From assembly GCF_055900595.2 (NCBI RefSeq), contig NZ_CM148325.1: a stretch of 64,000 bases of DNA; one strand, 5' to 3'. The notes beneath the pieces were generated by a model that was given only the letters and a program-made list of their open reading frames with translations, was not told the DNA's origin and made no database searches. Of this stretch, positions 5,845 to 47,442 are shown piece by piece (positions within the stretch are counted from its first letter, which is position 1; every line of letters begins with the position of its first letter). Position numbers and translations under genes: made by a program.

Positions 5845-5965
5845 ATGCCGGATGCGGCGTGAACGCCTTATCCGGCCTACAAAAGCATGCAGATTCAATA
5901 TATTGCAGAATTAACGTAGGCCTGATAAGACGCGCCAGCGTCGCATCAGGCGCTGAATGCCGGAT
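5845..5965. repeat. REP (repetitive extragenic palindromic) elements
   Basis: GCCGGATGCGGCGTGAACGCCTTATCCGGCCTAC and TAGGCCTGATAAGACGCGCCAGCGTCGCATCAGGC motifs. Confidence 0.85.
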
Positions 5966-11204: not shown

Positions 11205-11240
11205 GAAAAAAAAGCCCGCACTGTCAGGTGCGGGCTTTTT
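11205..11240 (-). terminator. thr operon attenuator (leader terminator hairpin plus U-run)
   Basis: AGCCCGCAC-CTGACA-GTGCGGGCT hairpin followed by T8 on the minus strand, between thrL and thrA. Confidence 0.85.
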
Positions 11241-11259
11241 TCTGTGTTTCCTGTACGCG

Positions 11260-11328
<69 letters not shown>

Positions 11329-37792: not shown

Positions 37793-38021
37793 CATGCCGG
37801 ATGCGGCCTACGGTTCGGCACAGGCCTGTAGGCCTGATAAGACGCGTCAGCGTCGCATCAGGCATTCTGCGCCAACTGCCGGATGCGGCGTGAACGCCTT
37901 ATCCGGCCTACGGTTCGGCACAGACTTGTAGGCATGATAAGACGCGTCAGCGTCGCATCAGGCATTGTGCGTCGACTGCCGGATGCGGTGTGAACGCCTT
38001 ATCCGGCTTACGAAGGGCAGA
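37793..38021. repeat. BIME/REP cluster (several REP units)
   Basis: Repeated GCCGGATGCGGCGTGAACGCCTTATCCGGCCTACG and TGATAAGACGCGTCAGCGTCGCATCAGGCA units. Confidence 0.9.
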
Positions 38022-44584: not shown

Positions 44585-45616
44585 ATGTCTGCATTTACCC
44601 CGGCAAGTGAAGTCTTGCTGCGTCACAGTGATGATTTCGAACAAAGCCGTATTCTTTTTGCCGGAGACTTACAGGATGACCTGCCCGCGCGTTTAGATAC
44701 CGCGGCCAGCCGTGCTCATACCCAGCAATTCCACCACTGGCAGGTGTTAAGCCGCCAAATGGGTGATAACGCCCGTTTTAGCCTGGTGGCAACGGCGGAT
44801 GACGTCGCAGATTGCGATACGCTGATTTACTACTGGCCGAAGAACAAACCGGAAGCCCAGTTTCAGTTAATGAATTTACTTTCTCTGCTGCCGGTGGGGA
44901 CGGATATTTTTGTTGTTGGCGAGAACCGCAGCGGCGTGCGCAGCGCCGAGCAGATGCTTGCAGATTATGCGCCGTTGAATAAAGTCGACAGCGCCCGTCG
45001 CTGTGGCCTCTATTTTGGTCGTCTGGAAAAACAGCCGGTATTTGATGCCGATAAATTCTGGGGCGAATACAGCGTCGATGGCCTGACGGTGAAAACGCTG
45101 CCTGGCGTGTTTAGCCGCGACGGTCTGGATGTCGGTAGCCAGTTGCTGCTCTCGACGTTAACTCCGCACACGAAAGGTAAAGTGCTGGATGTCGGCTGCG
45201 GTGCAGGCGTTCTTTCAGTTGCCTTTGCACGCCACTCACCGAAGATTCGTCTCACGTTGTGCGATGTTTCTGCGCCAGCGGTTGAAGCCAGCCGTGCAAC
45301 ACTTGCGGCCAACGGTATTGAAGGTGAAGTCTTTGCCAGCAACGTCTTTTCTGAGGTGAAAGGTCGTTTTGATATGATCATCTCCAATCCGCCGTTCCAC
45401 GATGGGATGCAAACCAGTCTGGATGCAGCACAAACGCTGATTCGCGGCGCGGTGCGTCATCTTAACAGCGGCGGCGAGCTGCGAATTGTAGCGAACGCCT
45501 TCCTGCCTTACCCGGACGTGCTGGATGAGACATTTGGCTTCCACGAAGTGATCGCGCAAACCGGGCGCTTCAAGGTGTATCGCGCCATTATGACCCGCCA
45601 GGCGAAGAAAGGTTAA
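44585..45616 (+). CDS. rsmC: 16S rRNA (guanine1207-N2)-methyltransferase RsmC
   Basis: 343-aa ORF with SAM-binding [11 protein letters not shown] and NPPFH motifs. Confidence 0.92.
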
Positions 45617-45634: not shown

Positions 45635-45790
<156 letters not shown>

Positions 45791-45916
45791 CGTTAGTTTC
45801 CTGATGGACATTTTTCCAGCAATTACACCTCCGTCGATAATTAACTATTGACGAAAAGCTGAAAACCACTAGAATGCGCCTCCGTGGTAGCAATTCTTTT
45901 TAAGAATTGATGGTAT

Positions 45917-46003
45917 GCGAAGGTGGCGGAATTGGTAGACGCGCTAGCTTCAGGTGTTAGTGTCCTTACGGACGTGGGGGTTCAAGTCCCCCCCCTCGCA
46001 CCA
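45917..46003 (+). tRNA. leuV: tRNA-Leu (anticodon CAG)
   Basis: GCGAAGGTGGCGGAATTGGTAGACGCGCTAGCTTCAGGTGTTAGTGTCCTTACGGACGTGGGGGTTCAAGTCCCCCCCCTCGCACCA; copy 1 of 3. Confidence 0.93.
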
Positions 46004-46031
46004 AAAACCACGTTGATATTGCTCGCACTGG

Positions 46032-46118
46032 GCGAAGGTGGCGGAATTGGTAGACGCGCTAGCTTCAGGTGTTAGTGTTCTTACGGACGTGGGGGTTCAA
46101 GTCCCCCCCCTCGCACCA
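46032..46118 (+). tRNA. leuP: tRNA-Leu (anticodon CAG), variable-arm variant (T at 46079)
   Basis: Identical to the flanking copies except C to T at tRNA position 48. Confidence 0.9.
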
Positions 46119-46151
46119 AACGAGGCGATATCAAAAAAGTAAGATGACTGT

Positions 46152-46238
46152 GCGAAGGTGGCGGAATTGGTAGACGCGCTAGCTTCAGGTGTTAGTGTCC
46201 TTACGGACGTGGGGGTTCAAGTCCCCCCCCTCGCACCA
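46152..46238 (+). tRNA. leuQ: tRNA-Leu (anticodon CAG)
   Basis: Third tandem copy, identical to copy 1. Confidence 0.93.
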
Positions 46239-46276
46239 ATTATCTTTACTTCCTTTCTTGTTTCTTCCTTGTTTTT

Positions 46277-46513
46277 TCATCCCTGATTCCAGTTCATTAT
46301 CATCAGCATAACGCCAGCAATAAGCGCCAGGCACGATGGTAGCAAAATGTAATGCCGTAACTGTTTGTGATACAACATCGCTGGCGTCAACACCAATCCC
46401 ATCAGAATAACAATCCGCCACTGATCCGGCGATATATCCACATACGTCAGCCCTGCAATCAGCAATCCTGGCAGCAACACTCCCCAACCACTGCCCAGCA
46501 TACGTTGCAACAT
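46277..46513 (-). CDS. yjjZ: small membrane protein YjjZ
   Basis: 78 aa from internal Met: MLQRMLGSGWGVLLPGLLIAGLTYVDISPDQWRIVILMGLVLTPAMLYHKQLRHYILLPSCLALIAGVMLMIMNWNQG. Confidence 0.7.
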   Translation of the reverse strand: MLQRMLGSGWGVLLPGLLIAGLTYVDISPDQWRIVILMGLVLTPAMLYHKQLRHYILLPSCLALIAGVMLMIMNWNQG

Positions 46514-46530
46514 GGTTTCATCTCTTTCAT

Positions 46531-46570
46531 TGATAATGATAACCAATATCATATGATAATTTTTATCATT
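46531..46570. promoter_or_regulatory. Fur box(es) in the yjjZ / fhuF control region
   Basis: TGATAATGATAACCAATATCATATGATAATTTTTATCATT, 17/19 match to GATAATGATAATCATTATC; second Fur-like site GCAATCATTATCATT at 46621-46635. Confidence 0.7.
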
Positions 46571-46653
46571 TGCAAGCCAGAGAAATCCCTTGCTATCGGG
46601 TAAACCTATCGTTAGGATTAGCAATCATTATCATTTAGATTACTATCCCGATT

Positions 46654-47442
46654 ATGGCCTATCGTTCCGCACCGCTCTATGAAGATGTTATCTGGCGAAC
46701 GCATCTCCAGCCGCAGGATCCTGGACTTGCAGAAGCAGTACGGTCGACGATCGCAGAAAATCGTGAACATTTGCTGGAGTTTATCCGCCTGGATGAACCC
46801 GCCCCATTTAGTGCCCTGACGCTGGCGCAATGGTCATCACCGAATGCGTTAAGTTCTCTGTTAGCTGTTTATTCCGATCATATCTACCGCAATCAACCAA
46901 CGATGATCCGCGAGAATAAGCCGCTGATCTCCCTGTGGGCGCAATGGTACATCGGCCTGATGGTGCCGCCATTAATGCTGGCCCTGTTAACGCAGGAAAA
47001 AGCATTAGATGTGTCGCCGGAACATTTCCACGTTGAGTTTCACGAAACCGGACGCGCCGCCTGTTTCTGGGTCGATGTGTATGAAGATAAAAACGCAACA
47101 CCACATTCACCGCAGCAGCGAATGGAAACGTTAATTAGCAAGGCGCTTGTTCCGGTTGTGCAAGCATTAGAAGCGACTGGAGAAATTAACGGTAAACTTA
47201 TCTGGAGTAATACCGGTTATTTGATCAACTGGTATCTGACTGAGATGAAACAGTTGCTCGGCGAGGCGACAGTTGAATCGCTGCGCCATGCCCTCTTTTT
47301 TGAGAAAACGCTCACTACCGGTGAAGATAATCCACTCTGGCGTACCGTGGTGCTGCGCGACGGCCTGCTGGTGCGCCGCACTTGCTGCCAGCGTTATCGC
47401 TTGCCGGATGTGCAGCAATGTGGTGACTGTACGCTGAAATAG
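46654..47442 (+). CDS. fhuF: ferric-siderophore reductase FhuF (C-terminal Cys cluster for 2Fe-2S)
   Basis: 262-aa ORF MAYRSAPLYEDVIWRTHLQP… ending …RRTCCQRYRLPDVQQCGDCTLK. Confidence 0.92.
   Translation: MAYRSAPLYEDVIWRTHLQPQDPGLAEAVRSTIAENREHLLEFIRLDEPAPFSALTLAQWSSPNALSSLLAVYSDHIYRNQPTMIRENKPLISLWAQWYIGLMVPPLMLALLTQEKALDVSPEHFHVEFHETGRAACFWVDVYEDKNATPHSPQQRMETLISKALVPVVQALEATGEINGKLIWSNTGYLINWYLTEMKQLLGEATVESLRHALFFEKTLTTGEDNPLWRTVVLRDGLLVRRTCCQRYRLPDVQQCGDCTLK

What the first reader, a model, noticed from the sequence alone, without database searches (positions are those of the whole stretch)
46032..46118. Middle copy of the tandem tRNA-Leu(CAG) triplet carries a variable-arm substitution
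The three tandem 87-nt tRNA-Leu genes are identical except position 46079, where copy 2 has T (GTGTTCTTACGG) and copies 1 and 3 have C (GTGTCCTTACGG). This turns a predicted C-G pair in the variable-arm stem into a U-G wobble. It is either a real isoacceptor microvariant or a sequencing error.
Basis: seen in the sequence. Interest (0 to 1): 0.2.

Follow-up and report, generated by a model that had tools for sequence, protein, structure and literature searches.

The report
Known leuP tRNA-Leu variant, not an error
The single T in the middle of three tandem leucine-tRNA genes is the normal, long-catalogued leuP allele of E. coli: it is present in the K-12 reference and about 89% of complete E. 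coli genomes, so it is real but ordinary.

Summary
Three 87-nt tRNA-Leu(CAG) genes lie at 45917-46003, 46032-46118 and 46152-46238 (+). They differ only at 46079, gene position 48, which is T in copy 2 and C in copies 1 and 3. C48 pairs with G55 in a 4-bp variable-arm stem, so the change gives a U•G wobble.

It is not a sequencing error or a strain-private variant. This is the leuQ-leuP-leuV operon between rsmC and yjjZ/fhuF, and K-12 MG1655 has the same T in leuP. A probe that can only seed on the T allele hits 4852 of 5426 complete E. coli genomes, usually once per genome. About 97% of genomes that keep leuP in context carry T.

The rest have a homogenised C-C-C array (O55:H7) or a contracted array; 425 genomes, mostly O157:H7, have one copy. 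The C-U-C layout recurs in at least 11 genera of Enterobacteriaceae. The U form also occurs in Morganellaceae and in the leuT gene of many genera.

The difference is already published (GtRNAdb Leu-CAG-1 versus Leu-CAG-2), and both RNAs have been seen in native tRNA. E. coli LeuRS does not read the variable arm, so the variant is most likely functionally near-equivalent.

Already known; low interest.

The parts
45848..45875 (+). [quoted passage not shown]
   Evidence: This is the best consensus match in the region, 10 of 12. It is identical in K-12 and nearly invariant in 14 genomes from other genera. Its function as the promoter is inferred from position and conservation.
45876..45916 (+). 5' leader of the polycistronic precursor, with a hairpin (inner stem 45891-45909)
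   Evidence: The fold gives -7.2 kcal/mol, z = -1.6. The stem changes on both sides between genera: AATTCTT/AAGAATT in E. coli against GATACT/AGTGTC or AGTATC in Klebsiella and Kosakonia. The leader is removed by RNase P according to PMC2190699.
45917..46003 (+). leuQ, tRNA-Leu(CAG), C at gene position 48 (window 45964)
   Evidence: ARAGORN and Rfam. Identical to K-12 leuQ, with the 3' flank CCAAAAACC.
46004..46031 (+). 28-nt spacer between leuQ and leuP
   Evidence: Identical to K-12. 82-100% identical across genera.
46032..46118 (+). leuP, tRNA-Leu(CAG) isodecoder (GtRNAdb Leu-CAG-2 type), U at gene position 48
   Evidence: ARAGORN and Rfam. Identical to K-12 leuP.
46079..46079 (+). The variant base: T (U48 of the tRNA), 5' side of the third pair of the variable-arm stem
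   Evidence: The T-allele probe hits 4852 of 5426 complete E. coli genomes.
46086..46086 (+). G55, the pairing partner of position 48 (U•G here, C-G in leuQ and leuV)
   Evidence: Hairpin fold. Pair 48:55 is CG in 13 and UG in 7 of 20 distinct Enterobacterales sequences and is never unpaired.
46119..46151 (+). 33-nt spacer between leuP and leuV (A6 run; K-12 has A7)
   Evidence: Alignment with K-12 shows a 1-nt indel in the A run.
46152..46238 (+). leuV, tRNA-Leu(CAG), C at gene position 48 (window 46199)
   Evidence: ARAGORN and Rfam. Identical to K-12 leuV.
46239..46276 (+). C/U-rich unstructured stretch downstream of leuV, reported as a Rho-dependent terminator region
   Evidence: No intrinsic terminator is found on the + strand. 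PMC2190699 states that an unstructured Rho-dependent terminator follows leuV. The boundaries given here are approximate.

Best explanation
The T at 46079 is the normal allele of leuP, the middle gene of the E. coli leuQ-leuP-leuV operon. The three tRNA-Leu(CAG) genes are transcribed from one strong promoter as a single precursor. RNase P separates the three tRNAs, their 3' ends are trimmed, LeuRS charges them, and they read CUG. leuP yields an isodecoder whose variable-arm stem has a U•G wobble where leuQ, leuV and E. coli leuT have C-G. The helix is kept, though about 3 kcal/mol weaker. E. coli LeuRS does not use the variable-arm sequence, so the two forms are most likely functionally near-equivalent. 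The dimorphism is old: it is inherited copy by copy across Enterobacteriaceae and beyond. It is lost only occasionally, by gene conversion to C or by recombinational collapse of the array. Shown here: the gene's identity, the reality of the allele, its frequency, its conservation and the retained pairing. Taken from the literature: expression of both RNAs, the processing pathway and LeuRS indifference to the variable arm. Inferred: functional equivalence.
For: The window is identical to K-12 MG1655 leuQ/leuP/leuV, including T in leuP. The flanking genes are the same: rsmC at 44585-45616 and yjjZ/fhuF downstream. A T-allele 55-mer, in which every 28-nt seed covers the site, hits 4852 of 5426 genomes, median one place each. 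The C-allele 55-mer hits 5425 genomes, median three places. The leuP 5' context is present in 4998 genomes. The exact T version matches 4525 of them. The exact C version accounts for about 133 (564 minus 431 partial hits). The C-U-C arrangement occurs in 32 species representatives of at least 11 named genera, with each copy identical to its E. coli counterpart and with orthologous promoter, leader and spacers. The variable-arm stem is 100% paired in 20 distinct sequences. Pair 48:55 is CG or UG, and 47:56 shows one compensatory UA to CG change. [quoted passage not shown] PMC9976931 says the sequence and folding of the E. coli tRNALeu variable arm do not correlate with leucylation, and that variants lacking the arm remain active. 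PMC2190699 describes RNase P processing and the Rho-dependent terminator.
Against: No experiment compares the U and C forms for charging, stability, decoding or fitness, so 'near-neutral' is an inference. The copy-specific persistence of C-U-C across genera, beside a downstream region only about 50-75% identical, could also reflect selection to keep both forms. Reads for this particular assembly were not available.
Confidence: 0.85

Rival explanations
1. Sequencing or assembly error: the true base at 46079 is C and all three copies are identical.
For: Repeats and the C8 run in these genes do attract assembly errors. Public assemblies show 84-, 86-, 88- and 89-nt versions of these tRNAs. One K-12 MG1655 assembly (CP025268.1) reads C-C-C with an 88-nt third copy.
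Against: The same T is in the K-12 reference, in 4852 of 5426 complete E. coli genomes and in the middle copy in at least 11 other genera. Both RNAs are reported in native tRNA (bioRxiv 10.64898/2025.12.27.696718). Cross-mapping among copies would erase a unique T, giving C-C-C as in CP025268.1. It would not create one.
Confidence: 0.005
2. A recent, strain-specific point mutation (C to T) in this isolate or its close lineage.
For: C to T transitions are the commonest substitutions, and highly transcribed genes expose the non-template strand (general knowledge).
Against: T is the majority allele, about 97% of E. coli genomes that retain leuP in context. It is shared with E. albertii, Salmonella enterica subsp. 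arizonae, Citrobacter, Klebsiella, Raoultella, Kosakonia and others at the orthologous copy.
Confidence: 0.005
3. A functionally specialised isodecoder: selection maintains the U form alongside the C form because they differ in stability, processing, fragment production, modification or susceptibility to some nuclease.
For: The C/U dimorphism is found on two different acceptor-stem backgrounds: A5/C79 in Enterobacteriaceae and G5/U79 in Morganellaceae. Copy-specific states persist across genera although the downstream non-coding DNA has diverged to about 50-75% identity. Many genera also carry U in leuT. The wobble weakens the arm by about 3 kcal/mol.
Against: E. coli lineages that lost the U form, O55:H7 and O157:H7 with 425 one-copy genomes, are successful. 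LeuRS ignores the variable arm (PMC9976931). Other variable-arm variants at 49, 50-53 and 47:56 occur freely in related genera, as expected of a weakly constrained region. No function is reported in the papers read. The sample is ascertainment-biased.
Confidence: 0.07
4. An array-stabilising mismatch. The central U in the middle copy cuts uninterrupted identity between neighbouring repeats from 87 nt to 47 and 39 nt. This would lower RecA-dependent deletion and conversion, so arrays that keep it survive longer.
For: The O55:H7 lineage has a homogenised C-C-C array. Its O157:H7 relatives have two copies (leuQ plus a leuP/leuV chimera) or one copy (leuQ 5' flank, leuV 3' flank). 425 genomes have one copy, always of the C type in those inspected. 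In 37-38 of 46 three-copy arrays retrieved from other species, the U is in the middle copy.
Against: This rests essentially on one lineage-level anecdote. Contraction also occurred in non-O157 strains of unknown ancestry, HS30-1 and 22AR0747. One mismatch still leaves 47- and 39-nt identical blocks. The species counts are neither phylogenetically independent nor free of ascertainment bias. No rates were measured.
Confidence: 0.05

Closest known systems
E. coli K-12 leuP (b4369), GtRNAdb tRNA-Leu-CAG-2-1
   Same: Identical 87-nt sequence including U48. It has the same position as the middle gene of leuQ-leuP-leuV between rsmC and yjjZ, and the same spacers apart from a 1-nt A-run indel.
   Different: Nothing of substance. 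The window comes from another E. coli strain, with A6 instead of A7 in the leuP-leuV spacer and a few flanking SNPs.
E. coli leuQ, leuV and leuT (tRNA-Leu-CAG-1 type)
   Same: Same anticodon, same length and 86 of 87 identical bases. leuQ and leuV share the operon with leuP.
   Different: They have C48, a C-G pair, instead of U48, a U•G pair. leuT lies in the argX-hisR-leuT-proM operon.
leuT-type tRNA-Leu(CAG) of Klebsiella, Citrobacter, Enterobacter, Raoultella, E. whittamii, Morganella and Xenorhabdus
   Same: Carries the same U48 variable arm, GUUCUUACGGAC. In Enterobacteriaceae it is identical to E. coli leuP over all 87 nt.
   Different: It sits in the Arg-His-Leu-Pro operon rather than the tandem array. 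In E. coli that gene carries C.
Other E. coli isodecoder pairs (for example valV/valW)
   Same: Near-identical tRNA genes with the same anticodon coexist in one genome. The nanopore preprint counts six E. coli isoacceptors with two isodecoders each (bioRxiv 10.64898/2025.12.27.696718), and PMC2190699 calls valV and valW nearly identical.
   Different: Different amino-acid identity and different sites of variation. These were not examined here.

Membership tests
tRNA (Rfam RF00005), type II tRNA-Leu | Cloverleaf scoring above the family threshold | tested here: met
   All three copies score 48.5 bits against a gathering score of 29. 98.1% of pair cells are standard pairs over 20 distinct homologues, against 46-65% when the partners are slid.
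tRNA (Rfam RF00005), type II tRNA-Leu | Leucine anticodon (CAG) at positions 34-36 | tested here: met
   ARAGORN calls tRNA-Leu with anticodon cag at position 35 of each gene.
tRNA (Rfam RF00005), type II tRNA-Leu | Long variable arm (more than 10 nt) forming a stem-loop | tested here: met
   There is a 12-nt insert in the variable region. It forms a 4-bp stem with a UUAC loop. The stem is 100% paired with one compensatory change.
tRNA (Rfam RF00005), type II tRNA-Leu | Discriminator A73 and the D-loop/hinge elements used by E. coli LeuRS (A14, A15, G18G19, U48) | tested here: met
   Read directly from the sequence. It ends ...GCA-CCA, giving A73 plus an encoded CCA. The D loop is AAUUGGUAGA, and a U precedes the T stem. 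The list of elements comes from PMC9976931.
E. coli leuQ-leuP-leuV operon, gene leuP (Leu-CAG-2) | Three tandem tRNA-Leu(CAG) genes between rsmC and yjjZ/fhuF | tested here: met
   K-12 annotation. Window ORFs: rsmC 44585-45616, yjjZ within 46277-46624 (-), fhuF 46654-47442. 99% identity to K-12 over 500 nt.
E. coli leuQ-leuP-leuV operon, gene leuP (Leu-CAG-2) | U at gene position 48 in the middle copy only | tested here: met
E. coli leuQ-leuP-leuV operon, gene leuP (Leu-CAG-2) | The U-variant RNA is made and is mature | not testable with these tools
   Literature only. [quoted passage not shown]
E. coli leuQ-leuP-leuV operon, gene leuP (Leu-CAG-2) | The U variant is aminoacylated with leucine as well as the C variant | not tested
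   Expected, because LeuRS does not depend on the variable arm (PMC9976931). No isodecoder-specific charging data were found.

The most novel reading that the evidence does not exclude
The C/U dimorphism at variable-arm position 48 is not just tolerated but actively maintained across Enterobacterales. Either the U•G isodecoder has a distinct property, or a mismatch in the middle repeat protects the tandem array from recombinational collapse. On the second reading, homogenisation to C-C-C (as in O55:H7) would predispose the array to the contractions seen in O157:H7.
Probability: 0.1. Interest if true: 0.45.

Novelty: already known. Interest (0 to 1): 0.1.

Why it matters
For the scan, this closes the item. 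The base is correct, the gene is leuP, and nothing needs fixing in the assembly.

There is a practical lesson. Single-base differences among tandem tRNA copies can be genuine and conserved. The typical artefact runs the other way: polishing erases the difference, or it miscounts the C8 run.

One modest point goes beyond the textbook. This isodecoder pair is old, and the C-U-C order is shared by many enterobacterial genera. The lineages that lost the U form are also the ones with shrunken arrays. That makes a cheap, testable question about what keeps small tRNA gene arrays heterogeneous and stable.

Tried and rejected
- **Whole-tRNA MFE folding.** It did not return a cloverleaf for either copy, which is common for unmodified tRNA sequences. 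I relied instead on the Rfam covariance model, folding of the hairpin alone, and comparative pair counts.
- **Original 1981 operon paper** (Duester et al., PMC326830). It is not held, and a text search for it returned only unrelated papers. I therefore cannot say whether the difference was already noted in 1981.
- **Mohanty & Kushner 2007** (PMC2190699). The paper describes the four Leu1 genes as having 'identical nucleotide sequences'. That is a simplification contradicted by the K-12 sequence itself.
- **Spacer extraction.** A first regular expression was wrong and was redone.
- **Limits of the E. coli counts.** The tool gives only summaries and up to 60 rows. I could not list which genomes carry more than one T copy (maximum 4 places). 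I could not count two-copy arrays, or cross coverage with identity exactly. The figure of about 133 C alleles in leuP context is a subtraction (564 - 431) and is approximate.
- **Sequencing error and private mutation.** Both were considered and rejected on the distribution data.

Full report
**1. What is in the sequence**

The window holds three tandem tRNA-Leu(CAG) genes on the + strand, at 45917-46003, 46032-46118 and 46152-46238 (ARAGORN). Rfam RF00005 scores each at 48.5 bits against a threshold of 29.

Aligned, the three 87-nt genes are identical at 86 positions. They differ only at gene position 48, which is C in copies 1 and 3 (45964, 46199) and T in copy 2 (46079).

**2. Where the site lies in the tRNA**

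The covariance-model alignment puts the site inside the 12-nt variable-region insert typical of type II tRNAs. That insert folds as a 4-bp stem (G46-C57, U47-A56, C/U48-G55, C49-G54) closed by a UUAC loop. The fold energy is -5.2 kcal/mol with C and -2.3 kcal/mol with U.

I tested the stem on 20 distinct tRNA-Leu(CAG) sequences gathered from Enterobacterales.
- The stem is paired in 100% of cells.
- Pair 48:55 is C-G in 13 sequences and U-G in 7.
- Pair 49:54 is C-G in 16 and U-G in 4.
- Pair 47:56 shows one compensatory U-A to C-G change.

So the substitution does convert a C-G pair into a U•G wobble while keeping the helix. MFE folding of the whole tRNA did not give a cloverleaf, so I did not use it.

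**3. What the locus is**

The genes lie between rsmC (44585-45616, +) and yjjZ/fhuF. Over 500 nt the region is 99% identical to the leuQ-leuP-leuV operon of K-12 MG1655. In K-12, leuP, the middle gene, carries the same T. K-12 leuT, the fourth gene of this tRNA, carries C.

Upstream is a strong consensus promoter, TTGACG-16-TAGAAT, at 45848-45875. There is no intrinsic terminator downstream of leuV.

According to Mohanty & Kushner (PMC2190699), the operon is transcribed as one precursor. RNase P alone separates the tRNAs, and transcription ends at an unstructured Rho-dependent terminator.

**4. Is the T real? E. coli genomes**

I used a 55-nt probe centred on the T, so that every 28-nt megablast seed must contain it.
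- The T probe hits 4852 of 5426 complete E. coli genomes, with a median of one place per genome.
- The matching C probe hits 5425 genomes, with a median of three places. This fits the pattern leuQ, leuV and leuT = C, leuP = T.

I then used 97-nt probes that include 22 nt of the leuQ-leuP spacer, in a T version and a C version.
- 4998 genomes have leuP in its 5' context.
- 4525 match the T version exactly.
- The C version's top identity band holds 564 records, of which about 431 are partial hits from genomes lacking that context. This leaves roughly 133 genomes with C in leuP.

T is therefore the allele in about 97% of genomes that retain leuP. Sequencing error and private mutation are both excluded.

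The artefact seen in public assemblies runs the opposite way. One K-12 MG1655 assembly (CP025268.1) reads C-C-C and also has an 88-nt third copy. Several other assemblies miscount the C8 run, which is a known indel hotspot (PMC8510543).

**5. Genomes without the T**

- O55:H7 CB9615 has three copies, all C.
- O157:H7 TR01 has two copies: leuQ plus a chimera with the leuP 5' flank and the leuV 3' flank.
- O157:H7 PNUSAE146744 has one copy, with the leuQ 5' flank and the leuV 3' flank.

A synthetic probe for the one-copy junction covers at least 80% in 425 genomes. In the five sampled rows these are mostly O157:H7, but they also include HS30-1 and 22AR0747. Loss of the U form thus occurs by gene conversion and by unequal recombination, and it is tolerated.

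**6. Beyond E. coli**

I ran ARAGORN on all of them, with these results.
- **Tandem array reading C-U-C:** 32 species representatives of at least 11 named genera. These are Escherichia, Salmonella (subsp. arizonae), Citrobacter, Klebsiella, Raoultella, Kosakonia, Phytobacter, Pseudocitrobacter, Pseudenterobacter, Intestinirhabdus and Enterobacter spp.
- **U in the middle:** 37-38 of the 46 three-copy arrays retrieved.
- **U in the leuT-type gene** of the Arg-His-Leu-Pro operon: 39 genomes, including Klebsiella, Citrobacter, Enterobacter, E. whittamii, a genome labelled Pantoea, Morganella and Xenorhabdus.
- **Two-gene arrays:** U-C in 15 Xenorhabdus and C-U in 9 Proteus/Morganella.

Xenorhabdus belongs to Morganellaceae and Pantoea to Erwiniaceae, so the U form reaches beyond Enterobacteriaceae.

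In 13 genomes compared in detail, each copy is identical to its E. coli counterpart. The promoter, leader and spacers are 81-100% identical. The 40 nt downstream are only 47-75% identical outside Escherichia. Sequence variation in this tRNA concentrates in the variable arm and in acceptor pairs 5-7:77-79.

Two caveats apply. Only loci containing U were retrievable, and the scan was truncated, so there is no count of species lacking the U form.

**7. What is already published**

- A tRNA-seq preprint lists (leuP) separately from the identical set (leuQ leuT leuV).
[quoted passage not shown] It describes them as differing at 'reference position 47 (V13 in Sprinzl coordinates)'. It reports two corresponding populations in native E. 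coli MRE600 tRNA.
- The review PMC9976931 summarises that A73 and hinge tertiary contacts determine leucine identity in E. coli. The variable arm's sequence and folding do not correlate with leucylation, and tRNALeu lacking the arm is still charged.

**8. Interpretation**

With high confidence, the feature is the standard leuP isodecoder. The most likely account is that it works like its siblings: same promoter, processing, charging and decoding. The U•G wobble would then be a tolerated, nearly neutral state in the least constrained helix of the molecule, inherited copy by copy and occasionally erased.

Two less likely readings remain open. One is selection for a distinct property of the U form. 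The other is that the mismatch in the middle repeat reduces recombination between neighbours, as suggested by the O55:H7 (C-C-C) to O157:H7 (two copies or one) series. Neither can be tested properly here, because of the ascertainment bias and the lack of rate data.

**9. Verdict**

The 'sequencing error' alternative is refuted. The variant is real, conserved and already known. Interest is low.

Noticed in passing
window 45695-45777 (-); also 37831-37908 and 37931-38008: Rfam naRNA4 (REP/BIME-type palindromic repeat) matches. One lies between rsmC and the leuQPV promoter, at 70.3 bits against a gathering score of 59.5.
   Followed up: no
window 11205-11324 (-): Threonine operon leader (Thr_leader, 121 bits). 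About 35 kb from the tRNA array, it shows the window runs across the K-12 coordinate origin in reverse orientation.
   Followed up: no
window 5881-5923 (+): Borderline Rfam hit to ES036 (CssrF) sRNA, 38.7 bits against a gathering score of 37.6.
   Followed up: no
window 45884-45916 (inner stem 45891-45909): The 5' leader of the operon forms a hairpin. Its stem changes on both sides between genera: AATTCTT/AAGAATT in E. coli against GATACT/AGTGTC or AGTATC in Klebsiella, Raoultella and Kosakonia. This suggests a conserved structure in the precursor.
   Followed up: partly
window 45987-45994, 46102-46109, 46222-46229 (C8 run in each tRNA); loci L003, L004, L075, L120, L128: The C8 run is a documented indel hotspot (PMC8510543). 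It is miscounted in several public assemblies, giving tRNA-Leu genes of 84-89 nt.
   Followed up: partly
L003 (E. coli UTAK-18, NZ_CP157132.1) 1481-1806: All three copies carry the same extra G in the anticodon stem, GCTGAGC instead of GCTAGC. This looks like a systematic basecalling or polishing error rather than biology.
   Followed up: no
E. coli genome collection: The number of tRNA-Leu(CAG) places per genome ranges from 1 to 10 (median 4), so the array both contracts and expands. O157:H7 genomes with one copy at this locus still show 3 places, implying an extra copy elsewhere that I did not locate.
   Followed up: no
L125 (K-12 leuT) against L007, L062, L069 and others: E. coli leuT carries C48, but the orthologous gene in E. 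whittamii, Klebsiella, Citrobacter, Enterobacter and others carries U48. The 3C:1U ratio in E. coli therefore looks derived from about 2C:2U.
   Followed up: partly
window 45921 with 45995 (gene positions 5 and 79) and the equivalent positions in copies 2 and 3: The acceptor stem has an A5•C68 mismatch in E. coli, flagged by Rfam. It is G•U in Morganellaceae, A-U in some Enterobacter/Lelliottia-type copies, and C opposite C in others.
   Followed up: no
PMC2190699, Table 1 against its text: The paper's Table 1 swaps the 3' flanks of leuQ and leuP (leuQ CCAAACGAG, leuP CCAAAAACC). The window and K-12 agree with the paper's text: leuQ CCAAAAACC, leuP CCAAACGAG.
   Followed up: yes
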